Below the pieces are notes generated by a model. It did not search any database. It saw nothing but the letters and a program-made list of their open reading frames with translations, and was not told where the DNA came from. Below are positions 11,408 through 52,277 of a stretch of DNA of 64,000 bases, one piece after another (position 1 is the stretch's first letter; each line of letters begins with the position of its first letter). The stretch comes from an uncultured Nitrospiraceae bacterium (GTDB taxonomy: Bacteria; Nitrospirota; Thermodesulfovibrionia; Thermodesulfovibrionales; SM23-35): NCBI GenBank assembly GCA_963727775.1, contig CAVSHB010000003.1, positions 416,001 through 480,000 on the forward strand, given 5' to 3'. The position numbers were made by a program, and so were the translations under genes.

Positions 11408-11485
<78 letters not shown>

Positions 11486-11505: not shown

Positions 11506-12345
11506 TTACGTGTTTCCCCCGTTTTCAAGTGAACTGTCACCCTGTCTGTCTTTTTTCCCCAGATCGGTCAACCTCTCGATAGCCTCCTTTTCAAACTCCT
11601 CGGGAATCTGCACGTAGTATTTCATTGTCGTTTCAATATTGCTATGACCCATCCATTTCTGAAGAGTCTTGGGAGGTACCGCCGCCATAGCACATCTTGT
11701 TCCAAACGTCCTTCTCAAATCATGAATCCGTGCGTCTTCGATACCAGCACGCTTGCACGCACTCTTGTAGGCCCGCTTAAAGTCTCGGGGCGGTTTCATA
11801 CCTTTACCAAATATATACCCTGCTTTCCCGGTTCGCGCCTTCACGCGTCTTTCGAAAATTTCTCGTGCCCTCTTGTTCACGGGCACGAACCTAGTTTTGC
11901 CGCCCTTTCCCAAAAGTCGCAGCATACCAGTTTCAAAATTGATATCTGCGACTCGAATGTTTAAAAGCTCTTTTTTCCTCGGCCCACAGTTCAACGTAAT
12001 CTCGATCTTATCCTGCAAATCGATAGCCTCTGTTTCGGTCAGCCCGGTGGCCTTTTTCGGGATCTTTGGCGTTTCATCCGGGTAAAATTCTTCTATCGTG
12101 ATGCGGTTAAGTCTTATCAAGTCGACCTTCTCCCCTGTTTCTTCATATTTTTTTCTGAGTGCTTTGAGGCGTCTTGTAGGTTCTACCTTGCCACTGTACA
12201 TTTTGATGACTTTATCATATAGGTGAACTCCCAATAAGATGTTATTCAGCCACTCTATGGTATTTGTACTATGAGTCTCTGGTCCAAACCCACCGCTCAA
12301 CAGAGCCTGACAGATCTTTTCAATACTATGTTTCTTCAAATTCAT
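11506..12345 (-). CDS. Tyrosine recombinase/integrase, catalytic half
   Basis: R (GPRKKELL), K (GKGGK), HDLRR, MGH and TMKYY catalytic residues all present. Confidence 0.85.
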   Translation of the reverse strand: MNLKKHSIEKICQALLSGGFGPETHSTNTIEWLNNILLGVHLYDKVIKMYSGKVEPTRRLKALRKKYEETGEKVDLIRLNRITIEEFYPDETPKIPKKATGLTETEAIDLQDKIEITLNCGPRKKELLNIRVADINFETGMLRLLGKGGKTRFVPVNKRAREIFERRVKARTGKAGYIFGKGMKPPRDFKRAYKSACKRAGIEDARIHDLRRTFGTRCAMAAVPPKTLQKWMGHSNIETTMKYYVQIPEEFEKEAIERLTDLGKKDRQGDSSLENGGNT

Positions 12346-12946
12346 CCTCTCGAAATTCTCCAGAGCCCCTCTTGCATTCGCTGAGAAGTCTGTCGATTTC
12401 GGCCGTCGTGAAAATGCGTAAGCGTGCCTCTTCTTTTTTCAGCTTCATTTTCTCTCCATTATTTTGAGCCTTGCACGGATTCGAGCCTTTTCTGCGAAAT
12501 CCCCAGCTCTCAGCTTTCGTAAAAATGCCTTTGAGGACTGCAAACTCCCTATTTGCCATATATACCGAAACCTGGCCGTATCGACGAGTCAAATAGTTGT
12601 CGACATTCAGACGTTCAACCGCTTCCATAGATATTTGACCGAATTCGGCAACAAGCTTTTTGCATATGCTTTTGTAATCAAATTGTGTTTTTTCCCGCAA
12701 TGACTTAGCATGCTTTGGAAGGTAGTACTCGTTCACGAATTCGCCAAAAGCGGCCTGCTTAATTTTTCGTTCAGGGAATATTTTCCATTCGCGAATTTGC
12801 TCTTTGAGTTTTGCCTCATACTCGCGGGCAAGAGTCTTACGAGTAGTGCCGCAAGTGAAATACTGCATTTTACCGAACTCATTTCTCAAACGCACATCAA
12901 ATATCCCTGTCTTTTTCCCATTTTTGTCTCTTCGCTCTACTATCAT
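12326..12946 (-). CDS. Tyrosine integrase N-terminal half (arm- and core-binding domains)
   Basis: ANREFAVLKGIFTKAESWG...NP...RLRIFTTAEIDRLL is typical of the core-binding/catalytic junction; overlaps the next ORF by 20 nt in another frame. Confidence 0.8.
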   Translation of the reverse strand: MIVERRDKNGKKTGIFDVRLRNEFGKMQYFTCGTTRKTLAREYEAKLKEQIREWKIFPERKIKQAAFGEFVNEYYLPKHAKSLREKTQFDYKSICKKLVAEFGQISMEAVERLNVDNYLTRRYGQVSVYMANREFAVLKGIFTKAESWGFRRKGSNPCKAQNNGEKMKLKKEEARLRIFTTAEIDRLLSECKRGSGEFREDEFEET

Positions 12947-14611: not shown

Positions 14612-15142
14612 TCATTCTGCCTCAAATGCCACGTTCACCCAATAGTTTGCGGATTGGTAAGTATTGACCGTGAAACCGACAGGTCCGAACAAATAGACAC
14701 TATTGCTGCCGTCCTCTCCATTAGCCAGGAAGCAAAGCGCTCCGTTGTTCACAGCTGTTGCGAAATACCCTACCGTATAGACAAATATGTTCGTGTGGTA
14801 AGAAGCAATGTATGTGGTATTGGCAGTGACAGATACAGGAGTTGCGAAATCCACCTGCTGCCATCCTCCTGAGGTCTCATTGGTGAATGTAGCTGACGCA
14901 AGAAGATTGCCACTTCTATCCCATAAATGAGCGCTATGCGTGCCGGTTGTCAACATTGACTTTATAGAACCGAATGCCCGTAACAATGCCGCTGAGACCG
15001 AAGCCCCGAACTTAACGCTAACACCAAGCTCAACCTTATTGCATGCTGTACTGGTCTGATACTGGGGCGCTAAATTGCCCCACATTGTGTAGGAAGGCGC
15101 GGGGGATACGATTGTTACGGTAAGAGCGGACGAAGGAGTCAA
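14612..15142 (-). pseudogene. DUF4082-like domain fragment
   Basis: VELGV.KF, HLWDRSGNLLASATFTNETSGGWQQVDF, YIASYHT, ANYWVNVAF; TTG start, no signal peptide. Confidence 0.6.
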
Positions 15143-15244: not shown

Positions 15245-18200
15245 TTAATGAATATGGTTCACGGTACCAGTAACTATCGTGTACGACGCGTTTGGAGTGG
15301 CATCGTTAAAATGGAAAGTGTAACTCACAGGCAAAAGTTGCATATCCTGAGTGAATGTTCGCCAAGAACCCGCGTAGTATTGAATACAACTGCCACTGTC
15401 GGAATGAACATCACCCGTCTGGAAGACGACCGTTGAATTAGTGGCGACGTTCTGAGATACCTGCTGCGTGGCTCCCCCATAGGTCATGCTGAAGCTGTAA
15501 GTGAGCGGCAATAGCTCCTTTGTAACTAAACCGCCTGAAGTATTGCCGATATTTAGCCACGATCCCGCATAGTACTGCACCGTGCCCGTATCCATCAGAT
15601 TGTTGGCGCTATTCAGGAGTTCTACCGTAACTTTCGTGGTCTGGAAGACGACTGTTGAATTAGTGGCGATATTCTGAGATACCTGCTGCGTGGCTCCCCC
15701 ATAGGTCATGCTGAAGCTGTAGGTCTGCGGCAACAGCTCCTTGGTAACCACGCCGCCTGATGTGCTACCAATATTTATCCACGATCCCGCATAGTACTGC
15801 GCCGTACCCGTATCCATCAGATTGTTGGCGTTATTCAGGAGTTCCACCGTTACCTTCGTCGTCTGGAAGACAACTGTTGAATTAGTCGCGATGTTCTGGG
15901 ACACCTGCTGCATGGCTCCTCCATATGTCATACTGAAGCTGTAAGTGAGCGGCAACAGCTCCTTTGTAACTAGGCCACCCGAGGTGCTGCCTATATTTAG
16001 CCACGATCCGGCATAGTACTGGACCGTACCGGTATCCATCAGATTGTTGGCGCTATTCAGAAGCTCCACCGTGACCTTCGTAGTCTGGAAAACGACTGTT
16101 GAATTAGTGGAGACGTTCTGAGATTTCTGCTGGGTCGCTCCCCCATAGGTCATACTGAAGCTGTAGGTAGTGAGAGACGACAACACTTGAGTAACCCGAC
16201 CAGTTGCGTCCGTCGTTCCAAAGGCTTTCCAGCTCCCAGAGTAATACTGTACTACGCCGCCGCTAAGCGGATTGCCCTGGCTATCCATAAGCTGAACGGT
16301 TACCGCATTGGGGTTTCTTGTAAAGGTCACAGTGACGGTTTGAGCAGCAGTGATGTTCGGTATAGTCCAAGTGCTGCCCGACAGGGTGCCCTGAGAAACG
16401 CTAGCCGTATAGCCGGTGTTCGTAGTAACCGTAAAGGTGGCCGTCCCTCCGTAACTGACGGACTGGCTTGATGGGGTCACCGTGCCGCCCGTTGGATCAC
16501 CCCCAACCGCAGCCGTAACTGTGTAGGTGCCGGTAACAAATGAAGCTGATACCGTACAGCCCAGTGTGATCGGTCCCGTCGTGTAGGTGCTGCCGGAAAG
16601 CGTTCCTCCACATCCGCTTACCGCCGCTATTTGGTAGCCTAGGTTCGGGGTAACTGTAAACGCTGTGGTAGCATTGTAATTCACAGTCTGCGGTGTGTTC
16701 GGACTTATGCTCCCATTGCTCCCTGCAGACGGCGTAACAGTGTAAGTATTAATCGCAGAGCTTGCACTGATGGTGTGATTCGCTGTCACATAGCTGAAAG
16801 TGTAATTCGCAACCGCTCCCACAGATGCGCCATCTACGAGCACGCTTGAAATATGATATCCGGTATTCGGTGTAATCGTAAAAGCCTGATTAGCACCGTA
16901 GACAACTGACACAGGTCCCGAAGGTGAGATACTCCCGTTTGCGTCTGAAGACGCGGTGATGACATACGCATTGACCGTAAGGCTTGCCGTTGCCGTCTTG
17001 CCACTGTACGTGCCAGTCACTGTGTGTGCCCCTGCCATGGTCGCCGTGCAGGTGGCTCCCGTGCATGAACTATCCGGCGAGATCGAGAAAACCGTCGAAC
17101 CCGTTACGTCCCCAAGGCTGTTGCCGTATTGATCGAATGCCTGGGCTGTGTAACTCTGGGTGCCTCCTGAATTTATCGTTGCGGTTGCAGGACTAATCGA
17201 GATGTGATCCAAAGCACCGGGTTGCACCGCAATGCTTCCGCTCGTGCCATTTATCGCCGGCATTGCACTGTCCGTTGCGGTTACAGTTTGACTGCCTGTC
17301 GTCTTTAACGTCGTCTCAGCGCTGAATGTGTGGCTGCCATTGTCTACAGGCTGGAACACATAGTTCACAGGCACTACCGCCTGCGCATCGGTGCTCGTGA
17401 ACTGCACCGAGCCTCCATAAACGGTAACGGTATTGCCATAGGCGTCCTTAGCGGTAGCTGTTATATCGAAGGCTACCCCCGCTGTTGCACTGGCAGGTGC
17501 CGTCACGCTGAACTTCGTAGCTACATTGGGACTTACCGCAATGCTTCCGCTCGTCCCGGTAACCGAAGAGATGACCGTGTCTATCCCGGTCACTGTCTGC
17601 GTACCAGATGTCTCAAGAACCACACCGGAGGCAAAGATATGGCTGCCATTGTCACTGGACTGAAAGACGTAATCGCCGGGCAACACGACACCGGCGTGCA
17701 AGTCCGTGCTCGTAAAGTGCACCGTCCCAAGGTAGTCGGCTACTATGTTATTGTAGTTATCTTTCGCCGTTACCGTAAGATCGAAGGCTTTCCCCGCCGT
17801 TGCTATGACCGGTGCAGTTAAACTAAAGGCAACCACAGCACCGGGATTGATTGTAAGACTGCTTGTAGCAGTGACGCCGCCATTGGTACCCGTAACCGTG
17901 TGTGCCCCAGCCACTGTTGCCGTGCAGGTGGAACCCGTGCATGAACCATCCGGGCTAATTGTGAAAATCGTTGAGGCGGTTACATCACCCAGACTGTTTC
18001 TATATGTATCAGAACCCTGCGCGGTATAGCTTTCGCTCGCTCCCGCAGAGATCGTTGCAGTCGCAGGGCTAATCGTCATGGAGCTAAGAGCTCCCGCATT
18101 CACGGTGAGGCTTGCCGTTGCCGTCTTGCCACTGTAGGTGCCTGTAACCGTATGTGCCCCTGCCATGGTCGCCGTACAGGTGGAACCCGTGCATGAACCG

Positions 18201-21200
18201 TCAGGACTGATCGTAAAGGTCGTCGAGCCGGTCACGTCCCCCAGGCTGTTGTTGGACACATCAAAGCCCGTTGCCGTATAACTCTGGCTGCCCCTTGGAC
18301 CAATCGTGGCCATTGCGGGGCTGATTACGATGTGATCAAGGACGGACGTCATGGTTACGATATTTACAGTGGTACCTGCCGAGGGACTTTCTACGTTACC
18401 AGTGTTATCCACTGCGCTGCTCATGATGGTAAAAGGCCCCGTCTGCGTCGGCGTCCAGGTGTAAGACCAGCTAGTTGTTCCTGTTGCTGCCTGCCATGTC
18501 ATTCCTCCATCTGTTGACACCTTAACCTGTGTGACGACTCCCCCCCCTGTATCTGCGGCAGTGCCCGTGATTCTCAATGGACTGCTTACCGGCAGTGTAG
18601 CCCCGCTTTGAGGTGACGTTATATCAGATACCGGCACCGTCTTACTAGGAGAAATCGTATTAATATTGAACGTGGCTATGACATAACTTGGTGCATCTAT
18701 TGTTACTGTGCATGTGCCTGTCCCCGAGCATCCCCCACCTGACCACCCAGCAAAAGCTGAATTAGCACCAGGTGCCGCCGTTAGGGTAACCAGTGTGCTT
18801 GAATTAAAGGACCCGACACATGCCGCGCCACAATTTATGCCGGATGGGTTACTGGTCACCGCGCCTGTACCCGTACCCATATTTGTAACTGCCAGCATAT
18901 ACTCCTGCGAACCGGTACATACACCCCCACCTGAAACATTTGTGCCTGCTGCAACTGCGCTACTTGCTTGTGGAGTAACGGAGGTGTCAACTCCTATCAC
19001 GCTGGTATTAGTTACAGTCGCATTCGTAGCAAACCCTGATATATTTGTGCCCCCTATTAGCCCCGCCGTACAGCCGGACATATTTCCATATAAGTCAACC
19101 TTTAAAACATCTATATTCGTAAAACCTAGGGCCGAGGAATTGGTATCCCCCGCGACGATGTATCCACCATCGGCAGTCAGCTGGGCAGAAATAGGCCATA
19201 TATAACCTGCCCCGCCATAGATATTCTGCCAAGTGCCGGGGAAACCCGGACCGACATTACCGCTACTGGCAAGTTTCATGAGCAATAAGTTATCACCACC
19301 GTTGCCAAATGACTCGGTATCAATTGCAACAACGTATCCACCATCTGTGGTCTGACGGATGGAATTCGCGGCATCATAAGTTGCACCGCCATAGGTATTC
19401 TGCCATGCAATAGTCCCGTCAGTATTGAGCTTAATTACCCAGGCAGTGGTATTGCCTGCACCAAATGAATCGGTATATCCAGATGTTATATACCCCCCGT
19501 CTGCCGTCTGCTGGATGGAATTGGCCCAATCACAATTTGCACCGCCATAGGTCTTCTGCCATGCGATAGTCCCATCCGCATTGAGCTTAATTATCCAGGC
19601 ATTGCAATTGCCTACACCAAATGAATTCGTCCCACCAGCTACAATATATCCTCCGTCCGTCGTCTGTTGGATAGAATTGGCCCAATCATAATTTGCACCG
19701 CCATAGGTTTTCTGCCATACGATAGTCCCGTCCGCATTGAGTTTCATTACCCACACATCGCCATTACCTGCACCAAACGAACTGGTTCCACCACCTACAA
19801 TATACCCCCCGTCTGTGGTCTGCTGGATAGATTGCGCTTCGTCATAAATCGTGCCGCCATAGGTATTCTGCCATGCAATAGTCCCGTCCGCATTGAGCTT
19901 TATTACCCACGCATTGCCATTGCCAGCACCAAATGAATCGGTATATCCGGATGCTATATACCCTCCGTCTGTGGTCTGCTGGATGGAATCGAACCACTCA
20001 TCGCCAGGGCTGCCATAGGTTTTCTGCCACTGCACAAACCCAGTTGAATCAAGTTTCATTACCCATGCATCCAAACCCCCTGCACCAAATGAATTGGTAT
20101 TTCCAGCCACAATATATCCCCCGTCCGTCGTCCGCTGGATGACACTGACACTCTCATTATCTGCCGCGCTGCCATAGGTCTTTGCCCATGTGCTCTGGGC
20201 ACCTGAAGAATTTGACAGTGGAACACTTGTCGTCGGGTTAACGGGATCATTTGAACTTATCGTAAATGTTGAATTGAAGATACCCGTTGATTGAGGGCTG
20301 AACGTCACGGTTACTGTGCAACTGGCGCTCGGCGAAAGAGTAGCCGTTGCGCTTCCGCATGGATTTGATCCGCCATTTATATTTAAGGCATAATTTACAC
20401 TATCCGATAATGTCATGCTTGTGATGTTCAAGTTCGCCGCGCCACTATTGGAAATAGCTATTGTCACAGGCAATGAAGTTCCCACCGGTGCATTTCCAAA
20501 GTTGAAGCTTGCGGGAGATACTGATATTTGAGGCTGAATCGGCATAAATACCGCGGTAACATTTGCGCCATTATTCATTGTTATTGCACACGTTCCTGAA
20601 CCGCTGCACACACCTCCTGACCATCCTACGAATACTGACCCGGCATCTGGAGTTGCCGTCAGCGCTACGGTCATATTGTTTCCATAGTAATATGTGCAGA
20701 TAGATCCGCAGTCCATGCCAGAGGGAGAACTCGTTATAGTTCCACTTCCTGAGCCGGACTTCGTCACTGTTACAGGAACTTTCTGATTAAACGTAGCGGT
20801 GAGGCTTGTATCAGCATTCATTGTGACTGTGCATGTATCCGTACCACTGCAACCCCCGCCCGACCATCCTGCAAAGGTGGATATCAAATCCGCCACAGCT
20901 GTCAGTGTCACATGCTGACCCTGAAGATACAATGATGAGCAGGTGCTGCCGCAATTTATTCCTGACGGATTACTTGTTATGGTTCCAGTTCCGAGACCGG
21001 GCTCGTTTAAGGTTAAGGTATAAGTTTGATTAGATGTGGACACGTTAGTACTGTTTCCATTGATTCTTAAAACCAGCACATCGCCTGCATCCCCGTTAGA
21101 CCTTTCGCCAACAACCACTATTTTCCCGTCAGGCTGCAGGGCCATCCCCTTACCCGAATCTCCTCCAGATACCGCGTCATTATAGGTTATGATTCCGTTT

Positions 21201-24200
21201 ACCCCGAAAAGACTGTCGGAAGTTCCATCGGCGTTATACCTCATAACCAGCACACTATTAGAAGAACTCCCGGCAACTACAATCTTACCGTCAGGCTGTA
21301 TGGTTAAAGCGGCGGCACGGTCCCCTCTATCGGGAGTGCCGTTAAAGCTGATTAGTCCGTTTACACCAAAGGTATTGTCCGGGGTCCCGTCAGTGTTATA
21401 CCTCCACACCAGTATACCGTTAGCGCCCCCACCCGCGGCTATAATCTTTCCATCGGACTGAACAGCAACCGCATCGGCCGAAGCCGCGTTGGCAGCGGAG
21501 ACTATGCCCCCATCATTGTCAAAGAGTACGCCATTAGTACCAAAATTGGTGTCCAAAGTTCCATCGGGATTATACCTTAGAATCAAGCTAACTGAATCTT
21601 GATATCCTGCAACCACAATTTTACCATCCTGCTGAATGGCTGCAGCGTATATGACAATCTGGTGTGTGCCTATTGGATTATAGGTCACAACCCCGTTTGA
21701 GCCGAAGGAGGTATCCAGCGTCCCATCAGAATTAAACCTTAAACTCAGCGCAGTATCGTAATTATGTGAATTAGTATTTATGCTAGTCATTCCCTCAATT
21801 ACAATCTTACCGTCCTGCTGTATCGCCACTGCTTGAGCAGCGCCATTGGGATAAGTGACAACCCCATTAGATCCAAAGGTATCGTCTGGTGAACCATCTC
21901 CATTGTATCTAAGTACCATCACATTCCCACCTGATTCACTGCCATACGAACCTGCAACCAACATCTTCCCATCTGCTTGAATGGCCACCCCGCCGACTGC
22001 ATCGTCGTTATCACCCGTCCCTTGATAAGAGGTGACGACTCCGTTAGAACCAAAGGTATTATCCAGAGTTCCATCGGTGTTATATCGCAAAACCAATATT
22101 TCCAAATAATTGCCGCTGTAGGTCTCACCGACAACTACAATCTTCCCATCCGGTTGTATAGCAACTCCCTGACCCCAATCTTCGCCATTCGCCCCGTCAT
22201 ACGTAACAACGCCACTCGGCGCATTGAATGTAGTATCGAGCCCGCCTATGCCAGTAAACGCACTTTGAGTGATCATAACATCCCGCCCGCCAACAGTAAT
22301 CATACCTGTCTGCGATACTATGTTTGTACTTAGCGGTACCGTATATCCTACCTCTCCGTTGCCCATACCGCTTGCACCCGAAACGACCGTTAGCCAAGGG
22401 ACATTGCTTCCGGAGCTTACGGCTGTCCAAGAACATGCGGCTGGCGCCGTTACTGTGATACTCCCTGTCCCACCGTTGTATGTAAATAACTGAATACCGG
22501 CATTCAAGGCAACGGCAGAGCTAAAATTAGCAGTTACTGTTCTGGCCGCATTCATTAATACTGTGCAGTTAGCACCCTCGACGCCATCACATCCCGACCA
22601 GCCCAGAAAAGTTGAGCACGCATCCGCAGTTGCTGCAGTCAAAGTTATGGGCGTATTATATCCATGGTAATATGTGCAGATAGATCCGCAGTTTATTCCA
22701 GCGGGAGAACTCGTTATAGTTCCACTCCCCACGCCGGTATTCGTCACTGTTAGGGGATACCCCTTATTAAACATGGCGGTCACGCTTGTATCAGCATTCA
22801 TTGTTACTGTGCAGCTACCTGTTCCACTGCAGCCGCCACCAGACCAGCCCGCAAAGGCGGAAGTCGCATCCGGCACCGCTGTCAGCGTCACCTGCTGATT
22901 CTGAGCATATATTGTTGAGCACGTCGTGGTGCAGTCCCCACCTGACGACTCTGACCTGTTATGCGGCTCATCTGTCACAGCTGCCCGAATCATCCGATAG
23001 TTTTGCTGTTGGGGAGGCGACAAGCAACCGCAGTCTATTCCGGACGGAGAACTCGTTACGTTACCACCACCGACGCCAGACTCGACCACAGTTAAAGTAT
23101 GAGCTTGAGCAAATGTGGCGGTCACGCCTGTATTGGCATCTATTGTTACTGTGCAGCTACCTGTTCCACTGCAGCCGCCACCAGACCAGCCTGTAAATAT
23201 CGAATTTGCATCCGCCACTGCCGTCAACGTCACTTGCTCATTCTGAGGATATATTGTTGAGCACGTCGTGCCGCAGCTTATACCTGTAAGGTTGCTATTT
23301 ACTGAGCCCGTTCCCGAGCCAGACTTCGTTACCGCAAGCTGAAAAATCGGTATCGTACTTTGCAGTCTAAAGAGAATCACATGAGACGTTGAGCCCCATT
23401 GTGCCTGCCCGGTAACCACTACCTTTCCATCTGGTTGGATGGCAAGGCCATCGCCCTCGGCCCAAAGCCCCGTGGCATTCTCACCCGGGCTTCCGTTATA
23501 GGTAATCGAACCACTCATGCCAAAGGTATTGTCCATTGATCCATCGCCGTTAAACCTGGACACTATCACCTCGGATCCTGTACCTCCGGCAACCACTATT
23601 TTTCCGTCCGGTTGAATCACGGCCGCTTTTAAATAGTCACCGCCGCCGGGAGTGCTGATAGAACTTGCTGCTCCATTGGTGCCAAATGTGCTATCGGGCG
23701 TCCCGTCACCATTATATCTGGCAACCGCTGTTATCTGGCCGTTTTGGCCGGTGCCCGCACCCGCCACGACTATCTTCCCATCCGACTGAAGGGCAACTGC
23801 TGCACCATTCATAGGGATCAGATTGGCGACAATACCATTTGAACCGAAAGAGCTGTCTATGGTTCCATCCGCGTTGAATCTGAAGATCAATACGCCTCCG
23901 GTTGCCACAACTACTATCTTGCCATCCGATTGAATAGCCACTCCATTAGCAGAAGCGCCATCCCAACCACCCATCGCACTTCCAAATGTGATGGCGCCGC
24001 TCGTGCCGAAGCCGTTGTCCAATGTTCCATCAGTGTTGTACCTCACAGCCAGTGCAGCCGCGTTTGATGCCCCCACAACTATGATTTTACCGTCTGGTTG
24101 TATAACCACAGAAGAAAAAGAAGAGCCTGCTTCATATGTAACCGCGCCGTTGGTACCAAACGTACTATCGAGGACCCCCTGCCCGCTGTATCTTAAAACC

Positions 24201-25645
24201 AAGCCAACTCCCGCATGATAATCGCTCGCTGCGATTACGATCTTGCCGTCCGGCTGTATGGCAACTGAGTTACCTCTGATCCAATTACCTTCTGCAATAT
24301 GATACGTAACGACACCGGATGACCCAAATGTATCATCCAAAGTCCCGTCGGGATTGTCTCGCAACACAAACATATCGCGAGTCGCGCCGTCCACCGAGGT
24401 TACGCCTGCAACTATAATTTTTCCATCCGGTTGAACAGCCACCGCGTTACCAGAATCGCTTCCATTCACGACGCCGTTACTATAAGTCGCAGATCCGTCC
24501 GGATTACTAAATGTAGTGTCAAGACTGCCCATGCCCGTGCGCTTAACTGTAAATGACCGTCCTACAGCCGTCACGGTGCCAACGAGATCCGGGCCGGCAG
24601 CGGCCATGTAGCCTACCGTGGCTTCGCCTGTACCGCCGCTGGCAGATATCGTTATCCACGGCACGTTGCTCATGACGAGCCACGGGCAGGACGGGCCGCC
24701 AGTCACATTGAAATTCCCGGCTCCCCCATAAAAAGGAACTGTCGCGCCTGTCGGTGTTATCATTAAACTCCCGTGGCAACCCTCGATCTGCGGAGTAATA
24801 GTTACAGTGATACCCGCAGAGGGACTTTCGACGTTACCAAGATTGTCCACTGCCCGGCTCATAATAGTATAGGCTCCCGCATGAGCCGGCACCCAATAGT
24901 AGAACCAGCTATTTGTCATTGTTGCGGGCTGCCATGTTGCTCCCCCATCGGTCGAGACATTGACCTGTGTGATGACCCCTCTGCCGGTATCGGATGCAGT
25001 GCCATATATCCAGATAGGAATACCGGCCGGCTGGGTGTATCCATTTGCAGGTGATGTTATCTGCGAGGATAGTATTTGCGAGGTCGGCGGCGGCGTTGTA
25101 CCGGGTTGCACAATTCCTGTGCCACTTAAAGGTACTGTGGTCGTGAGGGTATTGGGATCACTGAATGAGATAGAGAGATTTGCGCTCTTGCCACCAAGCG
25201 TTACCGGGGAAACTGTGACCTGCAGCGTGCAGCTTGTTGACGGCGCAAGTGACGTTCCCGTACAATTATCATTCGCTATGTTAAATGCAATAACATCATT
25301 GCCGTTGAAACCGGTTGTGCCAACTTGCAAGGTGTCTGTTCCAGTATTGGTGACCGTGAATGTTTGTGTTGATGATGTGCCGATAATGATATTTCCGAAA
25401 TTATGAGAAGCGGGAGTCGCCGATGCCGTATAGAGCTCCTTCTGAATCAGATTGCCAACTCCATCATAGATATATTTAACAACTGCCCCGTTACTGCTCA
25501 CCTGTATGAGGCGATTCACATCATCATAGGTGTAAATGAGTGGGTCGGCAGAGGAAATAGAGACGGTTAACTGCATGATTGATAGAACCAATGATAAGGC
25601 CAACAAAAAGCTTCTTACCAGCTTACAATTTGTTTTCAATTGCAC
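15245..25645 (-). CDS. Giant secreted multidomain surface protein (3466 aa): YD hairpin, choice-of-anchor-D/Ig, BACON-like, two delta-60 propellers, InlB-B-like repeats, WQKTYGG propeller, Ig repeats
   Basis: Signal peptide; repeated [16 protein letters not shown] (delta-60), [13 protein letters not shown] (InlB-B-like) and [21 protein letters not shown] motifs. Confidence 0.85.
15270..16300 (-). repeat. Four tandem 222-bp (74-aa) repeats plus a degenerate terminal copy at the C-terminus of the giant protein
   Basis: Anchor motif recurs at 15481, 15703, 15925, 16147 (period 222); peptide QYYAGSW...[17 protein letters not shown]. Confidence 0.9.
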
Positions 25646-25819
25646 TAGCCACCCCCGGTATTAGGTTTTTCGACAATATCAACGTACTCGTAAAAGTTAA
25701 CCGAACCTCCGTTAAACCCAATTGCATCTTCGGAGACGAATCCCGACCGACCCTCTTATGGCTATTTAAATTTACCACCGTTATGAAATGGTCTCCTGTT
25801 TTAAAAACTTATGGTGGGT

Positions 25820-26506
25820 TTATAAAACATTTTGTCCTTTTTGTGGTTTATCACCACTTTTCTCGATTTTTCTAATTTCCTTCTCGGCATATTTCTTATT
25901 TCGCTGATTTGTTGTTAGTCTTAATCCTTTTTGAAATTCATCCCTTGCATCTTGTAACTGTCCTTTGCCCAGATAAACATACGCCATATTAAAATGAGCA
26001 CCATCAGCATCTGGATACTCTTTCAGTATTTCTCTACAATAATACTCTGCCATGTCATACAAATTAAACATGCGGTATAGATTTGCAAGCTCATTATAAA
26101 CACTCAGCAAATTGTTATCAAAAAATCTAAGTGCTTCTTGGATCGCCTTTCCCGACAAGGAATCGTCATACAATAACTTATAAATCAAGCTTTGAAGAAT
26201 AAACCGTGGGCCACTTGGTTTAATTGAAATTGCTTTATTGCAGGATTCCAGGGCATCTCTAAATAATCCTTCTTTGATTTGCGCTGACGCAAGACCTGTA
26301 TAAGCATAAGGATTGTCAGGTTTCAATCTGATAGCCATATTATTAAACCTTATTGCTTTTTTGTAATTCTTTCTTTTGACATTTAAGAAATAGGCATAAT
26401 CAGTAAAACATAACGATTTTATATCACTGATTTTTTCACCAGCCATAAACATAGAAAAAATCCTTTCAAGTATGCTTAAAAAAACAAGTATTCTTTCCAC
26501 AATCAT
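25820..26506 (-). CDS. TPR-repeat protein (candidate RHS immunity/partner)
   Basis: TPR motifs (AIRLKPDNPYAYTGLA, AHFNMAYVYLGKG); AT-rich; directly downstream of the RHS gene. Confidence 0.75.
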   Translation of the reverse strand: MIVERILVFLSILERIFSMFMAGEKISDIKSLCFTDYAYFLNVKRKNYKKAIRFNNMAIRLKPDNPYAYTGLASAQIKEGLFRDALESCNKAISIKPSGPRFILQSLIYKLLYDDSLSGKAIQEALRFFDNNLLSVYNELANLYRMFNLYDMAEYYCREILKEYPDADGAHFNMAYVYLGKGQLQDARDEFQKGLRLTTNQRNKKYAEKEIRKIEKSGDKPQKGQNVL

Positions 26507-26605
26507 AACGCTAAAAACCTCTCCGGAAATCGACGCCGCAGATCACCAGTAATAGCTTATTTCTGAGCGCCAAAAATAAGCCGATGGCTTTTTGCTTTAG
26601 AACCT

Positions 26606-29600
26606 TTAACTTGCGCACCTCTTATTAGGAGGTTCCGTATGAGGATGGGGTGGTTCCGGGTGACTCCACCAATTCCAAGGCCACCACGGATTATCATACC
26701 ATTGAGGTGGAGGTCGAAGCGGATCGCTCACTCCTGGCTCCCATCTAGGATTCCATTCGCTCCAGCCAGGGTCATCTGGACTTATTGGCCGGAGTCTAAA
26801 CCATTTTGTCTCTCCCAGTAAAACCGGGTCAATGCCGATAAAGACTAACCCCAAAGGATCGATTCTGTTTATGGGACTATTTGCCGCATACGAATAAAAG
26901 TTAATCGAACCTCCTGCCAACCCTATTGGGTCTTCGCTCACGAATCTCTGTAACTCGGGGCTATAATACCTAGCTCTGTAGTAATAAAGCCCTGTCCCAT
27001 CATTTTCTCTACCTGTGTATTGAAAAGGATTGTCAGAAACCTCCCCTATTATAGTGACCTTTCCAAAGGGGTCATAAACATACTGTGTCATAATTGCCCC
27101 ATTTTCATCAGTCAGCGCTATTACCGAACCTAATGCATCTCTCTGATAGAACCTGTACCTTATCAGCCCGTTCGATTCTATCCTTGCCAGCGGCTCATCA
27201 ATATTAAGCGTCCTGATGTAATCAACCGTGGGAAGCCCATTCTCGATCTCCTGGACGATATTTCTTCCATCATAGACATACTGGATAGTACTGCCATTAA
27301 TAGTTTTATGTATCCTTCTGCCCAACGCATCGTATATGAACGACGCAGTGAGTGCCGAACAATCTGTCTTGAACCCATTGATACCAGTTAACCTATTCCT
27401 CGCATCCCATGCGTAGGTAGTCGTCCCGCACCCGTTTATCCGGGAGGTCATATTGCCGTTGGCATCATAGGTAATATTATCTGTATCAAAGGTCAGCATT
27501 TGATTAGCAGCATTATACAGAATATTTGAAACGGGGAGAGTAGGTATAGGCGGACTTACTGAAAGCCTATCCGTAGTTGTCCTGTTTCCATTCGCATCAT
27601 AGGAGTAGTTGATAGACTCTAGTACAGCCTCAACGGGATTAAGATGCTGAAGATTTAAGAGACGACTTCCGTTATCGTAGCTATAGGTTGTCATTACTCC
27701 GTTTGCCAGTGTCAGCGTCGCACGTCTGCTGAGGGCGTCATATCCAAGAATGAAGTTCAGAGCATTTCCGCTGATTGTGGTGTTTATCTCGGTCAAACGG
27801 CTGTCTCCGTCATAACCGTAGTTGACTGTCGGCTGTCCTGCTACAGTCATGCTTGCCCTTCTGCCCGCCCTGTCATAAACATAAGAGACGCTTCCGAAGG
27901 GTGTTGTCTCACTGGTTATTTTATCGGTAGTACCTGCGCTACATCCTGTGTCGCAGCCGGTTATAGTATAAGCGTAGGTTATCACCCCGGATACGCTGTC
28001 GTTGATGGTAGTCAATCTGCCCAGCATGTCATAGGTATAGGTTGTGTAGCTTCCGTCCGCATAGGCCGCATTTATCACTCTGTTCAGCGAATCGTATGTA
28101 TAGGCGGTCATCTGTCCTTTCCTGTCCGTTACGGTATGGAGGTTGCCGAACTGGTCATAAGTATAGGATTCGATATTTCCCAGTTGATCGGTCATCTTCA
28201 CGGGTCTTCCCAGATAATCATAATCATACCGTATGGTGTCCTGTTTTGCGTCGGTCACTGTTGCGATCTGGTCGTCAATTGTATAGGTATAGGCGGTGGT
28301 GCCGCCGAGAGCATCAGTAACCGTTGCTGGTCTACCCATGGAATCATAGATATAACTGGTGGTTTTCCCTTTAGGGTCGGTTATGGTTAAGAGCTTTCCA
28401 GTGGTGTCGTAAGTGAAAGTGGCAGTGTTTCCCAGTGGGTCTGAGAAGCTCAGGAGATTGCCTTTTGCGTCATAGGTAAGGCTGGTCACGTTACCCGCAG
28501 CGTCGGTTATGCTAGTCGCCTTTCCCCACGTATTGTAAGTATAGTAAGTTGCATTGTTCATAGGATCTATCATGGTGATCATATTACCGTTATTGTCGTA
28601 GCCGTAGTTGGTGGTATTGCCCTCTGGATCTGTCTTTGAGATAACATTCTTGTAATAGTCGTAGGCATACTTTGTCTCGGCACCATTCGGTCCTGATATA
28701 TCAGTCAGTATGGCAAGATTGGTGTCATACGTGTATTTCCATGTGCCTTCGCTATCTGTAATGGTTAATTGGCTAGTCTGCAATGCCGGGTTAGAATAAC
28801 TATAGGTTTTGGTGCCGTAAGGGCCGATGGATGCGGCAAGTCTCGCGCCCGTGTCATATTTATATGACGTGACATTCCCCTTCGGGTCTGCCTTTGCTAG
28901 CATCAGCCCATCGTAATTCCAGGCATTGCCCGCAGGGTCAATTATCGAGGAGAGATTGCCTGTTGTTGGATCGTAGCTTATTACAGTCACCCTAGAGGCA
29001 GGATCCACTACTGCGACGATCTTACCATCTTCGTAAGCCAGACCAATGGTTCTTCCATAAGGATCAGCGATGGATGTAAGAAAGCCTGCCGTATAAGTGA
29101 GCGTGACCGTGTTGCCGTTTCTGTCGGTGATACTCAGAAGTTTCCCCGAAGTTGAATCGAAGAGATAGATTGTCCCGTCTTTCTCCGTAAGTTGATATTG
29201 TACTCCATTCGTACTGAGAGTAGAGTAGTCTCCCGGCTGAGAGGTGTAAAGGTTGCCGACCCGGGTATATAACCTTTTCGTGCCGGTTCCTTCGGTTACC
29301 GTTATTGAATCATCGCCATTTTTGACAAGGTATGTATAATATGAATGGCTCCAATTTCTCCCAAGGGGGCCCGTGATCGGACCGGCACTGCTGTAATACA
29401 AAGTCATACCCGGCATAAGCCCCGTGCCACTTATGGAGAAAAGGTTGACACTGTCGGAAAGGTTGCCGCTTATTGCGTTGACCATAGAATTAGCCGGCTG
29501 ATTGCTTCCGCAACATGAATCTGCGCTACCACAACAAGAGTCGGTGCTACCTAGGCAAAGAGGAGGAAAACACTCACACTCAAGACAACACGAGGCCCAA

Positions 29601-29848
29601 ATATCCCCAAAATAACCCGACGCCCAAGTACATGTCTGACTATATCCTGGCCCACACAACCCAGAACGACAAGAATCAGGCTCATTATAATTACCTAGAT
29701 AATCACAAGGACAACCAATATCACACCAACCCACAGCATGAGCCTTCGTACAACTCCCATGAAAAAAACCGATAAGCATGACGAAAAAAAACAAGATGAT
29801 AATGAACTTCACACGAATCCGATCACTTTTCTCATCCTTTTTATACAT
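26606..29848 (-). CDS. RHS/YD-repeat protein with N-terminal signal peptide and Cys-rich region
   Basis: DUF6531-like PLGRNWSHSY, many YD repeats, RHS core FQYTGRE..GLYYYRARYYSP...RFVSEDPIG...YAANSPINRIDPLGL. Confidence 0.92.
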   Translation of the reverse strand: MYKKDEKSDRIRVKFIIILFFFVMLIGFFHGSCTKAHAVGWCDIGCPCDYLGNYNEPDSCRSGLCGPGYSQTCTWASGYFGDIWASCCLECECFPPLCLGSTDSCCGSADSCCGSNQPANSMVNAISGNLSDSVNLFSISGTGLMPGMTLYYSSAGPITGPLGRNWSHSYYTYLVKNGDDSITVTEGTGTKRLYTRVGNLYTSQPGDYSTLSTNGVQYQLTEKDGTIYLFDSTSGKLLSITDRNGNTVTLTYTAGFLTSIADPYGRTIGLAYEDGKIVAVVDPASRVTVISYDPTTGNLSSIIDPAGNAWNYDGLMLAKADPKGNVTSYKYDTGARLAASIGPYGTKTYSYSNPALQTSQLTITDSEGTWKYTYDTNLAILTDISGPNGAETKYAYDYYKNVISKTDPEGNTTNYGYDNNGNMITMIDPMNNATYYTYNTWGKATSITDAAGNVTSLTYDAKGNLLSFSDPLGNTATFTYDTTGKLLTITDPKGKTTSYIYDSMGRPATVTDALGGTTAYTYTIDDQIATVTDAKQDTIRYDYDYLGRPVKMTDQLGNIESYTYDQFGNLHTVTDRKGQMTAYTYDSLNRVINAAYADGSYTTYTYDMLGRLTTINDSVSGVITYAYTITGCDTGCSAGTTDKITSETTPFGSVSYVYDRAGRRASMTVAGQPTVNYGYDGDSRLTEINTTISGNALNFILGYDALSRRATLTLANGVMTTYSYDNGSRLLNLQHLNPVEAVLESINYSYDANGNRTTTDRLSVSPPIPTLPVSNILYNAANQMLTFDTDNITYDANGNMTSRINGCGTTTYAWDARNRLTGINGFKTDCSALTASFIYDALGRRIHKTINGSTIQYVYDGRNIVQEIENGLPTVDYIRTLNIDEPLARIESNGLIRYRFYQRDALGSVIALTDENGAIMTQYVYDPFGKVTIIGEVSDNPFQYTGRENDGTGLYYYRARYYSPELQRFVSEDPIGLAGGSINFYSYAANSPINRIDPLGLVFIGIDPVLLGETKWFRLRPISPDDPGWSEWNPRWEPGVSDPLRPPPQWYDNPWWPWNWWSHPEPPHPHTEPPNKRCAS

Positions 29849-29859
29849 ATATATTCTCC

Positions 29860-30012
29860 TCAGAAGTCCCTTTTAGGTACCGAAAGAGCATCAGGAGACT
29901 TCAGACAGCCGGAAGATGGATCCATAGCCTTCGCACAATCTCCTGCGTACGCATCATGAACTAACGATACCAAGGAAAAGAGCAGAATAAAAAGTAAAAA
30001 AAAGAGTCTCAT
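29860..30012 (-). CDS. Small secreted peptide (50 aa, 2 Cys)
   Basis: MRLFFLLFILLFSLVSLVHDAYA signal with AYA cleavage site; ends 11 nt before the RHS start. Confidence 0.5.
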   Translation of the reverse strand: MRLFFLLFILLFSLVSLVHDAYAGDCAKAMDPSSGCLKSPDALSVPKRDF

Positions 30013-33191: not shown

Positions 33192-33476
33192 GCATATTTT
33201 ACTGGCAGTCATGATTTCTTTGACGCGCTCCATTCTTTTTTCTGCCTCAGACGCAAGACGCAGCAAAGTTCGCCCTTTAATCTCAAGATTCCCACAGAAG
33301 GTACCCATTACACTGATTGCATCCAGAACAGCAATGGCAAAACTCACATTACCACTGATCTCGTCGATCTGATCTATGTTCAATCGCCAAATCACTTCCG
33401 ATCTATTTTCCAGCATACCTTTCGCATTCACCTTTCTCATTGTCACCTTACCCTGCTCTCTGCCACGACTACTCAT
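33189..33476 (-). CDS. Hypothetical protein
   Basis: 95-aa ORF overlapping the upstream gene stop, GGAGG RBS. Confidence 0.45.
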   Translation of the reverse strand: MSSRGREQGKVTMRKVNAKGMLENRSEVIWRLNIDQIDEISGNVSFAIAVLDAISVMGTFCGNLEIKGRTLLRLASEAEKRMERVKEIMTASKIC

Positions 33477-34461
33477 ATGCGCCTACCTCCCTTAACCGGT
33501 CAGCTATTTCTTTTTTCGGTTTCCTCTGATAGATTTCTGATGCGAGGTACTTGTCATAGGAACTCCATTCTCTTTCTGGGGCAGAGTCCTTCAAATGGCA
33601 GAAAAGGTGGTTCATCTTAGCATCCGTGTTTTCAATATGATGAAGTGCAAGAGCCTCCGGCGTTGCCGGCCTGACGGGGCTACCGAACTCAAGGCTTCCA
33701 TGATGAGAAAGGACCATATGCCTAAGGAGCAGCCCGAGATCCTCCGGGAATCTTTTAATAAGACGCAGCTTATTATCAAGGATCATGATCCCCAGCGGTA
33801 TATGCCCCAGGAGCCTGCCTTCCGTCGTATAAGACCTTGTTATTCCCGGGGTTAACTCCCTTGTTTTACCGATGTCATGCAGGAGGGAACCTGTCAGAAG
33901 TAGGTCCCTGTCCAGCAGCGCGGGATACTTATCAGACATATATGCTGCATGTGACATGGTGTTCACTGAATGTTCCACTAACCCGCCCACGTAATTGTGG
34001 TGCACGGTCATCGCGGCCGGCGCGATTTTGAAGTCTTCCAGGAATTTTTGATCTGAAAAGAGCGATTCCAGAAGCAACCGGCAATTCATATCTTCGATCG
34101 TCTCGATCTTCTCATGCAATGAGTTCATCCAAAGATCCACCCCACCCGGTACCACATCCAAGAAATCTGCCATAACAATTTCCTTTTCGCGAACGGACCT
34201 TATCGCTTCTATAGTCAATATCAATGCCTCGTTATACATTTTCGTCTTTCCCTCAACATGTACGTATGCCACGCCCCTCAGATATTCCGCCTTCTCTTCG
34301 GGCTCATTCCAGATGTATCCCTTGAGCTGCCCGCTTTTGTCAGACAAGGTCAGAACGAGAAAGAACCGTTGATCTCTGGTCTTCCTTGTTTCGGCGGATT
34401 CAAGCGCAAAGAAAGTATTGACTTGCTCATTAGGTTTAAGGTCTGATTTCATCTGTTTCAT
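33469..34461 (-). CDS. YhaM/Cbf1-like OB-fold plus HD domain nuclease
   Basis: LTLSDKSGQLKGYIW (OB), APAAMTVHHNYVGGLVEH, LLHDIGK, ILSHHG-like VLSHHGSLEFGSP. Confidence 0.88.
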   Translation of the reverse strand: MKQMKSDLKPNEQVNTFFALESAETRKTRDQRFFLVLTLSDKSGQLKGYIWNEPEEKAEYLRGVAYVHVEGKTKMYNEALILTIEAIRSVREKEIVMADFLDVVPGGVDLWMNSLHEKIETIEDMNCRLLLESLFSDQKFLEDFKIAPAAMTVHHNYVGGLVEHSVNTMSHAAYMSDKYPALLDRDLLLTGSLLHDIGKTRELTPGITRSYTTEGRLLGHIPLGIMILDNKLRLIKRFPEDLGLLLRHMVLSHHGSLEFGSPVRPATPEALALHHIENTDAKMNHLFCHLKDSAPEREWSSYDKYLASEIYQRKPKKEIADRLREVGAYE

Positions 34462-34605
34462 TCTTCTCCCTCCTTTATTTATTAGTTATCTTTATCGATA
34501 TCCATTGTAATCCCCTATACTGACAATAATGCTATCCATCGTCCCATCAGGGATAAGACTAAAAGTAAAACCACCACTACCATGAGGATCACGCATGGTA
34601 TTCTT

Positions 34606-35199
34606 TTAAGCCGCCCTCTTTGATTTATTGATCAGGGTGCCCAGACTGAGAGGGTAACTCTCCGCCGCCACTCCGTAAGATCTTGCAATATTCCTCATAT
34701 TCCCATCGTTGGTCGCAAGGATTACATAATCCCCGGTATCCTGTTTTAACAGGATTACCGTGCCCACAATCCTGTTGTCGGCGACACTTGCAAGGTCATC
34801 GATTGCTGCGTGACTGTTGCATATTCTCACAATAGAGCCTGCAGATGTTATGGCCCCCAATTTAATGTCCTGGCGTCTGCTCAGCCTGTCGAGAATCCTT
34901 ATGACCTGTCTGGCGGGCTTCGCCCTTTCGGGATCCCAACTTCTCTTTAGACCGTCAAGCTCCTTAATGACCGCGCCGGGGATAACAATCTGACTTTTGC
35001 CGAGCTTGTAAAAAATATCCGGATCATCGATCAAAACGCACGTATCAAGCACATATGTCTTTCTATTCACCTGCAAGAGTCTCCTTTCTTTTCTTATGAG
35101 GGCTATGCACGGTATCAAGGCTTTTTTCTCTTCCCTCTGCATCCCTGGATAGATTTGCCTCTTAACTGAGCCTTCATGGTGTATCTTTTCTATGTCCAT
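34606..35199 (-). CDS. Stand-alone PIN domain protein (PhoH2-type PIN)
   Basis: YVLDTCVLIDDP, VIKELDGLK, ADNRI, LATNDGNMR. Confidence 0.8.
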   Translation of the reverse strand: MDIEKIHHEGSVKRQIYPGMQREEKKALIPCIALIRKERRLLQVNRKTYVLDTCVLIDDPDIFYKLGKSQIVIPGAVIKELDGLKRSWDPERAKPARQVIRILDRLSRRQDIKLGAITSAGSIVRICNSHAAIDDLASVADNRIVGTVILLKQDTGDYVILATNDGNMRNIARSYGVAAESYPLSLGTLINKSKRAA

Positions 35200-35658
35200 T
35201 AGTCCTTACTGTATATAAATTCGGACAGGCAATTTGTCAAGTTACTTACACCCAATTTTTTTCAAGAATGAAAATTTATTTTGGATGGACAGATTCTGAT
35301 TGAAATGGCCAAGGATCTCTCGGTTTGAAAACTCGATTTCAAGGGAATAATTTTTTGAGGTAGCACAGGTTAGTTGATATTCGTGTTGCAGCAGCGGACA
35401 GGCGCCGGGAAATTCGGGGGGGGGAATAGTAGGTGCGTCTGTTGTCTTATAAAATATCTATAAGATAAAGTATCGAATTATGGCGCGGTGGTGGCTAAAT
35501 CGTTCCTCACAGTAACCGATATATTAGGGGATACGGATTACTATGAGGAGTACGATCGGTATTTATCATGCAGGGTCCAAGATCATGGAAAACACCTCAG
35601 CAGGATTAAGGCCGTCCCCTTGTACCAGATGTCTGTCTTGTAATAATATAAACGCCAG

Positions 35659-36270
35659 ATGGAATTTAACGCCTCAGCACACATTTTTAAATCACCAAAA
35701 GTTAAAGCCATAATCAATGAGGCGATAGACTTTTTAAATAATACTCCTGCCCATGAACTACCTCCGCCAGAGTCGTTTATAGGGACCGGAGTTTACTGCT
35801 TGTATTATCTCGGCGGGCTTGAAATATACAATAAAATTGCCTGCGAGAACATCAAAGAATGTACAAAGCCGATCTATGTGGGTAAAGCTGTCCCAAAAGG
35901 ATGGAGGACAGCACGAGTGGCAAGTGATACTGATTCTACACTATACGGCAGAATACGACAGCACGCAAATAACATTACACAGGGGGAAGGACTAGAGATT
36001 AAAGACTTCCGTTGCCGGTTCATGATTTTGAAAGGCGACGAAAGCAATATGATAACAATTGTTGAAGCCGAGTTAATACGAAGGTATATGCCCCTATGGA
36101 ACACTGTTATTGATGGATTTGGCAACCACGACCCGGGAAAAGGAAGATACGATCAAGCGATCTCGGAGTGGGACGTATTGCACCCAGGTAGACCGTGGAT
36201 AAAGAGACAGAAAGGTCAACCACCGGATCTTACAAAAATCAAAACCAAGATAAAGGAAGCCTTGAAGTAA
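35659..36270 (+). CDS. Eco29kI-family GIY-YIG restriction endonuclease
   Basis: GVYCLYY...PIYVGKAVPKG, WNTVIDGFGNHDPGKGR, SEWDVLHPGRPW. Confidence 0.9.
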   Translation: MEFNASAHIFKSPKVKAIINEAIDFLNNTPAHELPPPESFIGTGVYCLYYLGGLEIYNKIACENIKECTKPIYVGKAVPKGWRTARVASDTDSTLYGRIRQHANNITQGEGLEIKDFRCRFMILKGDESNMITIVEAELIRRYMPLWNTVIDGFGNHDPGKGRYDQAISEWDVLHPGRPWIKRQKGQPPDLTKIKTKIKEALK

Positions 36271-37659: not shown

Positions 37660-37777
37660 ATTAAGTGTATCTATTTTCCCTCAAAAGACATCAATAAATC
37701 TACAACGTTGACCCTTTTCTCGCATTTACGCATGTAATGTTGTTCTCCAAGCGACAGATCGCTTTCCCATCGGGCGT

Positions 37778-38608: not shown

Positions 38609-38856
38609 GTTTCTCTCCTCTTGATTTTTTCGATACATCCTATTTTTTCGTTTGATAAATGCGCATCTGTCTTCGTGACATCTTGTCTCACGTCATCAAA
38701 CAATTGTCGCGGCAGTGATAGAGATGCTTCGCATCATCTACCATCAACGCCAGGAGTACATTCTAAACAGCATGCCACAATTCCTATTGAATCAAAAGTC
38801 TTCCTGAGAACATTAACTGCAAAGTAGTGATACTGCTTTCCCACTTCCTTTCGTAT

Positions 38857-39912: not shown

Positions 39913-40297
39913 CTTTCCTCCTTTTCCGCCATTGCTTGTCACAGAACTGTGGAAGCCATCCGGATCCCGTGTCTGTGCCAGATTTCCGGCTGTCGATACT
40001 CGAAATGTCTCCTGGTGATCTTGCACCACCTATGCTTTCCAATGACATTTTTGCAAACCTCCTCTGAGCCGCCATGGTCTCTTTCTACTATAAGCAACGC
40101 TATATTGTTTGTCAATATAAGTTACAATCATATCTGTTCTTCTTTTACTAACATTTAAATGCTGCGAAATCAGCATCTTATATTGCGTTCATTTCTTTTT
40201 CTGAAATTGTTTTATATAATTATATAAATAGTCAGTGGGCATGTTACTTTAAGTAGCTCTTGATATTTTGTTAATAACAGTGTAAGATGGCGTCAAA

Positions 40298-52228: not shown

Positions 52229-52277
52229 GACTCTTAATCAGCGGGTCGCAGGTTCGAATCCTGCACGGCTCACCATT
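52229..52277 (+). repeat. attR core, 49-bp direct repeat (3' fragment of tRNA-Lys)
   Basis: Identical to 11437-11485. Confidence 0.95.

What the first reader, a model, noticed from the sequence alone, without database searches (positions are those of the whole stretch)
15245..30012. Candidate new system: Sec-exported RHS capsule, TPR partner and giant YD-capped adhesin in one gene run
Seen: four co-oriented genes, namely a small secreted peptide, a 1080-aa RHS protein, a TPR protein and a 3466-aa propeller/Ig protein. The RHS protein has a signal peptide instead of PAAR, VgrG or Tc-type delivery domains, and no T6SS/Tc genes are in the window. Established: RHS shells encapsulate a self-cleaved C-terminal cargo, and teneurins combine propeller, Ig and YD-shell modules in one chain. 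Inference: a two-chain, teneurin-like display or delivery system in which the giant protein is the stalk/receptor-binding part and RHS is the payload, spread on a mobile island.
Basis: partly seen in the sequence, partly recalled or inferred. Interest (0 to 1): 0.85.

Follow-up and report, generated by a model that had tools for sequence, protein, structure and literature searches.

The report
Notched RHS capsule with plug-in partner
This bacterial toxin capsule lacks one repeat of its wall, and the giant protein two genes away starts with such a repeat and is predicted to plug the gap, a pairing seen across several phyla that would likely let capsules carry exchangeable surface-binding partners.

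Summary
The four co-oriented genes are real. They lie on a 40.8-kb element integrated at tRNA-Lys in a likely Nitrospirota genome where no T6SS sheath, PAAR or SpvB gene was found. The conserved unit is not the giant protein but its first ~40 mature residues, a lone YD unit ('cap'). Caps head secreted proteins of very different size and cargo; 34 of 53 had an RHS gene in the fetched stretch (26 of 32 where context was good). All 18 cap-flanked shells aligned, including this one, lack one YD unit at the same site and carry a Pro-rich linker there ('notch'). In loci picked by RHS alone with good context, 8 of 12 notched and 0 of 10 complete shells had a lone-unit neighbour. A complex model, run after the site was predicted, places the cap in the notch (0.88, best control 0.00; no YD-unit control). 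The Trp/Pro-rich C-terminal cargo has two relatives elsewhere, one followed by a 45%-identical TPR gene, suggesting a toxin-immunity pair. Binding, export, toxicity and targeting are untested. It is not a teneurin-like protein. Seven paper searches and four look-ups of earlier scan notes showed no such notch-and-cap system.

The parts
26606..29848 (-). RHS capsule protein, 1080 aa: signal-like N-terminus, Cys-rich region, DUF6531, YD shell, RHS core with two DPxG motifs, C-terminal cargo
   Evidence: model pLDDT 88; best folds are RHS effectors
27497..27586 (-). Notch: RHS aa 755-784, a Pro-rich linker (762-775) where complete shells carry an extra YD unit; predicted docking site of the cap
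   Evidence: alignment; linker is coil; interface
26609..26845 (-). 79-aa Trp/Pro-rich C-terminal cargo after the DPxG site; small family (P0031, L136); likely toxin, activity unknown
   Evidence: no hit
25820..26506 (-). TPR protein, 228 aa, 33% GC; likely immunity protein of the Trp/Pro cargo
   Evidence: 45%-identical homolog directly after the related cargo in L136
25678..25740 (-). Degenerate RHS-core remnant, a scar of cassette exchange
15245..25645 (-). Giant secreted cap protein, 3466 aa: cap, Ig-like domains, two DUF5122 propellers, a third 52-aa-repeat unit, InlB B-repeats, 74-aa C-terminal repeats; no C-terminal membrane stretch or sorting family found
25430..25546 (-). Cap: lone YD unit (aa 34-72) right after the signal-like peptide; predicted to fill the notch
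29860..30012 (-). 50-aa peptide with signal-like N-terminus and two Cys; no match in fetched loci, role unknown
11437..11485 (+). Left attachment repeat (tRNA-Lys CTT 3' end) of the 40.8-kb element
52229..52277 (+). Right attachment repeat, identical 49 bp
11506..12946 (-). Tyrosine integrase lying in two reading frames (likely frameshifted, or an assembly error)

Best explanation
This RHS capsule lacks one YD unit of its wall, and the lone YD unit at the start of the neighbouring giant protein is predicted to fill that gap, which would likely close the capsule and tie a likely toxin-loaded shell to an exchangeable surface-binding partner. Steps: (1) Inferred: both chains cross the inner membrane by Sec; the genome has secretins and type II pseudopilins as a possible onward route. 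(2) Shown in sequence: the shell has a Pro-rich linker at aa 762-775 where complete relatives have an extra YD unit. (3) Predicted: the cap's first and last strands pair with the strands flanking the linker, and the cap also touches the neighbouring spiral turn and the protease core. (4) From established RHS biology (recalled), untested here: the core cleaves off the 79-aa Trp/Pro-rich cargo inside the shell. (5) Inferred: the TPR protein binds and neutralises that cargo in the producer. (6) Inferred, weakest step: the propeller and Ig domains behind the cap bind a target or surface and so aim the capsule without an injection machine.
For: Co-occurrence: 34 of 53 cap genes had an RHS gene in the fetched stretch, 33 on the same strand; 26 of 32 with good context. 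In a second phylum 13 of 20 did, and the other 7 caps lie within about 700 bp of a contig end. Notch: 18 of 18 cap-flanked shells span the region in 81-92 aa. Reverse test on 186 loci chosen by RHS similarity only: with at least 4 kb on both sides, 8 of 12 notched and 0 of 10 complete loci had a lone unit; in any context 17 of 68 and 0 of 19. Of 301 genomes of the phylum, 37 had a notch hit, 39 a cap and 28 both, 4.8 expected; outside the training genomes 15 both, 2.2 expected. One natural fusion has the cap at the N-terminus of a notched RHS (L339). On a tree of the region after the notch, the joint state changes at least 8 times, 6 forced by starred branches. Complex model: 0.88, best of 3 controls 0.00; the mark was reached by 116 of 157 solved complexes and 2 of 215 mismatched pairs; runs agree in at least 95% of contacts, partner pLDDT at least 84. 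The interface covers RHS 747-784, the site noted beforehand. None of the 39 solved chains matching the cap profile is a short lone-unit chain. The cargo-TPR pair recurs on another shell type.
Against: Nothing is measured. The complex controls were unrelated proteins, not other YD units, and closed RHS shells are solved, so the pass may reflect memory of a closed shell. The cap profile ranks the in-cis extra unit first in only 2 of 66 complete shells, so the cap is a generic YD unit by sequence. 4 of 12 well-covered notched loci had no lone unit, and 6 of 32 well-covered caps had no RHS nearby. One cap lies beside a shell scored 'complete' (L352; by eye it lacks the next unit instead). The genome-level overlap is not corrected for kinship or for simply having RHS genes, and only 16-31 candidates per genome were scored. 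The tree used concordant loci only, some labelled by eye. The cargo similarity to L136 is modest (62 of 5000 composition-keeping shuffles reach it), and no toxic activity is known for it. No receptor-binding role of the giant was tested.
Confidence: 0.62

Rival explanations
1. The cap does fill the notch, but acts as a stopper, folding aid or tether on the producer's own surface; the cargo domains do not aim the capsule at a target, and pulling the cap would open the shell to release the payload.
For: The cap contacts the protease core (RHS 927, 967-968, 982-994). Many cap proteins are only 69-215 aa. In L343 a cap gene is repeated three times, each before an orphan core-plus-cargo cassette.
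Against: Cap proteins carry very varied propeller, Ig, RCC1, lectin-like and enzyme domains, up to 3466 aa, more than a stopper needs. No membrane anchor or sorting family was found at the giant's C-terminus.
Confidence: 0.2
2. The notch-cap complex is real but this copy is not a weapon: the short Trp/Pro-rich tail is a signal or a decayed toxin, and the complex serves adhesion or display.
For: The tail is 79 aa, matches no family and has no recognisable catalytic fold. The core remnant and the two-frame integrase show decay. The TLP paper leaves a communication role open (PMC13018210, Discussion).
Against: The tail is conserved on three different shells, and the TPR gene follows it in both cases with known context. 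Tails of notched shells are hypervariable, as in polymorphic toxins.
Confidence: 0.12
3. The lone YD unit is a recombination vestige of an RHS gene and the giant protein is an unrelated island passenger; no binding occurs.
For: An RHS-core remnant lies just upstream of the giant gene. The giant's body has a cap-less paralog elsewhere in the genome. YD strands pair promiscuously in models (inference).
Against: Caps sit right behind a signal-like peptide with 4 invariant and 6 near-invariant columns over 54 sequences. They track the notch rather than RHS genes in general (0 of 19 complete loci). The model places the cap at the site predicted beforehand.
Confidence: 0.06

Closest known systems
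RHS/YD polymorphic toxins exported by Sec (Zhang et al. 2012, PMC3482391, Table 1 passage seen); T6SS RHS shells RhsA, Tse5, Tse15, RhsP (PDB titles)
   Same: YD shell, DUF6531, DPxG core, variable C-terminal cargo, downstream immunity-like gene, signal peptide as export mark.
   Different: The shell lacks one unit and is predicted to be completed by a separately encoded chain with variable cargo. The table lists no neighbourhood signature gene for the Sec class. No PAAR or VipB found in this genome.
Bacterial teneurin-like proteins (PMC13018210; abstract, introduction, first results section, passages and Discussion seen)
   Same: Signal peptide, YD shell with a toxin and immunity gene, adhesion domains, no obvious delivery machine.
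   Different: TLPs are single chains defined by FN-plug, NHL and YD-shell in one frame, and their shell showed no opening. Here there is no NHL hit, and the adhesion domains are on a second chain.
Streptomyces umbrella toxin particles (PMC11062931; abstract only)
   Same: Works like it: a repeat-containing polymorphic toxin scaffolds separately encoded, diversified binding modules.
   Different: No homology is claimed: umbrella particles use a ring of repeats with five lectin-tipped spokes; here one YD unit would insert into one notch of a YD shell.
Tc toxin B-C shell (recalled; PDB 4igl title)
   Same: A YD shell built from two chains.
   Different: B and C each supply a large part of the shell end to end and dock on a pore-forming A subunit (recalled). 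Here a ~40-aa unit fills a gap near the core, and no SpvB match was found in the genome.
Donor-strand complementation in chaperone-usher pili (recalled)
   Same: An incomplete beta structure is finished by the N-terminal segment of another chain.
   Different: Ig fold and one strand there; a four-strand YD unit in a toxin shell here.

Membership tests
RHS/YD polymorphic toxin | YD repeats forming a beta shell | tested here: met
   13 RHS_repeat stretches; model pLDDT 88, best folds RhsA and other RHS, E ~1e-59
RHS/YD polymorphic toxin | RHS-associated core with two DPxG motifs before a variable C-terminus | tested here: met
   TIGR03696 87 bits at 925-1001; motifs at 973 and 997; tails of relatives differ
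RHS/YD polymorphic toxin | C-terminal cargo is toxic and is cleaved off | not testable with these tools
   No family match; two sequence relatives only
RHS/YD polymorphic toxin | Cognate immunity gene directly downstream | tested here: inconclusive
   TPR homolog follows the related tail in L136; one independent case, neutralisation untested
Sec-exported RHS | Cleavable N-terminal signal peptide | tested here: inconclusive
   Basic start, one hydrophobic stretch and AxA-type site; no SignalP; an uncleaved anchor is not excluded
T6SS-delivered RHS effector | PAAR or VgrG-type delivery domain and a T6SS in the genome | tested here: not met
   No such Pfam or NCBIfam hit on the protein; no VipB or PAAR in the 96.8%-complete genome, controls ring; VgrG not searched
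Tc toxin complex | SpvB-bearing B subunit (and A subunit) encoded with the RHS C subunit | tested here: not met
   No SpvB match in the genome; A subunit not searched
Teneurin-like protein (TLP) | FN-plug, NHL propeller and YD shell adjacent in one reading frame | tested here: not met
   No NHL hit; TEN_YD-shell 37 bits, cut-off 50; definition from the methods passage
Umbrella toxin particle | Ring of toxin repeats scaffolding lectin-tipped spokes | not tested
   No Umb profile was run; analogy only, from the abstract

The most novel reading that the evidence does not exclude
A widespread, undescribed class of modular toxin capsule: the RHS shell is deliberately left open, and a ~40-residue YD plug at the N-terminus of any secreted protein completes it, so that bacteria mix payloads with targeting or tethering modules, and plug removal gates payload release. 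The notch-and-cap state appears to have arisen or been lost repeatedly across RHS subfamilies and at least six phyla.
Probability: 0.5. Interest if true: 0.9.

Novelty: new variant of a known kind. Interest (0 to 1): 0.8.

Why it matters
How RHS-type capsules without an injection machine reach a target and open is stated as unresolved for TLPs (PMC13018210, Discussion). The notch-and-cap rule gives a sequence-visible, residue-level hypothesis for one large class: a defined gap, a defined 40-residue partner and a two-protein binding test. It also gives a role to a class of secreted proteins with a single YD repeat that now look like fragments, and a second route, besides umbrella particles, by which polymorphic toxins could recruit exchangeable binding modules.

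Tried and rejected
Sequencing runs: no RNA holder listed, and the two DNA holders gave only scattered short contigs; no evidence either way. ESM Atlas: the giant's first 180 aa gave only Ig-like hits under 0.8, the tail no usable hit. The word search with the tail found only itself among 9 candidates; its relatives came from local alignment over 281 fetched tails. The library-wide search with the notch profile was dominated by giant multi-repeat proteins and gives no family size. In-cis caps: none at the N-terminus of 60 notched proteins among 268 examined (the 2 flagged are mid-shell repeats), so fusion is rare (L339; L052 is in three frames). The idea that the cap is specifically related to the missing unit was not supported (rank 1 in 2 of 66). 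In one search, 4 of the 11 'no-cap' rows were under 110 aa: L016 has a lone unit inside the upstream gene, L020 and L037 keep the unit by eye, L121 is 109 aa; L017 (120 aa there) was later classed as notched with a cap. The small peptide and the Cys-rich region had no match in fetched loci. Four look-ups of earlier scan notes gave nothing bearing on this. Paper searches for the notch or cap, seen as listings only; subscription papers and supplements were not seen.
Full report
Observation. The four minus-strand ORFs exist as described. The RHS protein has a signal-like N-terminus, a Cys-rich region, DUF6531, YD repeats, an RHS core with both DPxG motifs and a 79-aa tail. The giant protein has one YD hit at aa 40-68, then Ig-like domains, two DUF5122 propellers, B-repeats and C-terminal repeats. 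The genes lie in a 40.8-kb element bounded by an identical 49-bp repeat of the tRNA-Lys 3' end, next to an integrase in two frames. The genome (3.4 Mb, 96.8% complete) gave no VipB, PAAR or SpvB match, but has 3 secretin and 2 clear type II pseudopilin matches. A same-order relative is titled Nitrospiraceae (L001 and G053 are one contig), so the host is likely Nitrospirota.

The partner is the cap, not the giant. Among loci fetched by RHS similarity, several held a secreted protein with one YD unit right after the signal-like peptide. A profile of these (A1) hit 8 of 81 relatives strongly and 43 of 301 genomes of the phylum, 39 after dropping 4 hits that lacked the signal part. Of 53 cap ORFs in the fetched stretches, 34 had an RHS gene nearby, 33 on the same strand; of 32 with good context, 26 did. 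In 201 genomes of a second phylum, 19 had hits; of 20 cap loci fetched, 13 had an RHS gene, and the other 7 caps lie within about 700 bp of a contig end. Caps also flank RHS genes in Methylobacter, an actinomycete and Scalinduaceae, and a Paenibacillus locus has the unit inside the upstream gene. Behind the cap the cargo varies freely: TIG, PKD, RCC1, Big_5, lipase, MopE or almost nothing. A 3896-aa paralog of the giant in this genome (45% over 1218 aa) has no cap and no RHS neighbour.

The notch. Aligning shells showed that between window aa 716 and 800 all 18 cap-flanked shells have 81-92 residues, with a Pro-rich linker. Of 11 shells without a cap seen then, 7 had 110 or more, with an extra YD unit at that place; the exceptions are listed under Tried and rejected. 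Database relatives split the same way: 35 of 93 at 100 or fewer, 57 at 110 or more. The AlphaFold model shows the linker (aa 762-775) as coil between two strands. For a reverse test I classed 186 loci chosen by RHS similarity only, using profiles built from proteins without context: 68 notched, 19 complete, the rest unclassed. With 4 kb on both sides, 8 of 12 notched and 0 of 10 complete loci had a lone unit (Fisher p 0.0017, kin not independent); in any context 17 of 68 and 0 of 19. Two of the eight (L005 directly, and the seeds L024 and L052 through the earlier profile) helped define the cap, so the test is not fully blind. At genome level 28 of 37 notch-bearing genomes had a cap, 4.8 expected; this is not corrected for kinship or RHS content. 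Other RHS subfamilies beside caps show the same gap by eye. On a tree of the 200 columns after the notch, built from 45 notched-with-cap and 19 complete-without-cap loci, the state changes at least 8 times; discordant loci were left out, and RHS modules recombine. One protein carries the cap fused to its own N-terminus (L339); none of 60 other notched proteins does.

The complex. I noted the notch as the expected site before the result. The model of RHS 112-1001 with the 44-aa cap scored 0.88 against a best control of 0.00; that mark was reached by 116 of 157 solved complexes and 2 of 215 mismatched pairs, the three runs share at least 95% of contacts, and partner pLDDT is at least 84. Confident contacts fall on RHS 747-784 (the notch), 493-537 (the neighbouring turn) and 927, 967-968, 982-994 (the core). 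The cap's start pairs with the strand before the linker and its end with the strand after it. Limits: controls were not YD units, closed RHS shells are solved and may be remembered, and the cap is no closer in sequence to the missing unit than to other repeats. None of the 39 solved chains matching the cap is a short lone-unit chain. The model supports binding; it does not show it.

Cargo and immunity. The Trp/Pro-rich tail has no family hit. Among 281 fetched tails the two best are P0031 (score 116) and L136 (82; reached by 2 of 5000 full shuffles and 62 of 5000 stricter ones). In L136 a 45%-identical TPR gene follows the tail directly, on a different shell type. With 33% GC and this position, the TPR is likely the immunity protein. 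A core remnant between TPR and giant points to earlier cassette exchange.

Mechanism. Shown: gene order, notch, cap, their co-occurrence, the island. Predicted: the cap fills the notch. Inferred: Sec export, cleavage, toxicity, immunity, and aiming by the giant's domains. The aiming step is the weakest; a stopper or tether role is the main rival.

Relation to known systems. It is an RHS polymorphic-toxin locus by shell and core; Sec export of RHS toxins is listed in PMC3482391 (Table 1 passage). It fails the TLP definition and shows no T6SS or Tc link. It would work like umbrella particles (PMC11062931, abstract) in recruiting separate binding modules, and like Tc B-C or pilus donor strands (both recalled) in finishing a beta structure in trans. 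Seven searches of the held library (listings only) showed no paper on a notched shell or a lone-YD partner; subscription papers and supplements were not seen.

Verdict. Observation confirmed, interpretation partly supported and sharpened. New variant of a known kind; interest 0.8.

Noticed in passing
L129:4581-13456, L130, L132:7709-14886, L137, L138: Split RHS systems in relatives: a large shell chain without a core, plus separate short genes with their own signal-like peptide, the RHS core and a variable tail. A second kind of shell completion in trans.
   Followed up: no
L343:5477-17800 (G353): A notched RHS followed by three repeats of cap gene plus orphan core-and-tail cassette.
   Followed up: partly
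L001:4471-12799, L115, L125: Conserved four-gene run in same-order relatives: cap protein, a ~460-aa secreted protein with no Pfam hit, a propeller/carboxypeptidase-regulatory protein (fused to RHS in L115), then RHS.
   Followed up: partly
window 33469-49242: The island also carries an Eco29kI-type nuclease with a methylase, a CapH/CapP-like pair followed by an HD protein and a DarG-like protein, PIN and Phd toxin-antitoxin genes, a resolvase and IS110.
   Followed up: no
window 14612-15142: DUF4082 ORF with a TTG start just after the giant gene, possibly a cargo remnant.
   Followed up: no
L352:4871-6012 (G557): A cap protein whose cargo is the same 74-aa repeat as the giant's C-terminus (54% identity), beside a shell that seems to lack the neighbouring unit rather than the usual one.
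   Followed up: partly
window 54083-56139: Repeated 20-60-bp palindromic elements around the PIN and YceI genes, outside the island.
   Followed up: no
L215-L237, L257, L262 (genus g85): Many very short cap ORFs (74-170 aa), several without an RHS gene nearby, likely decayed cassettes.
   Followed up: partly
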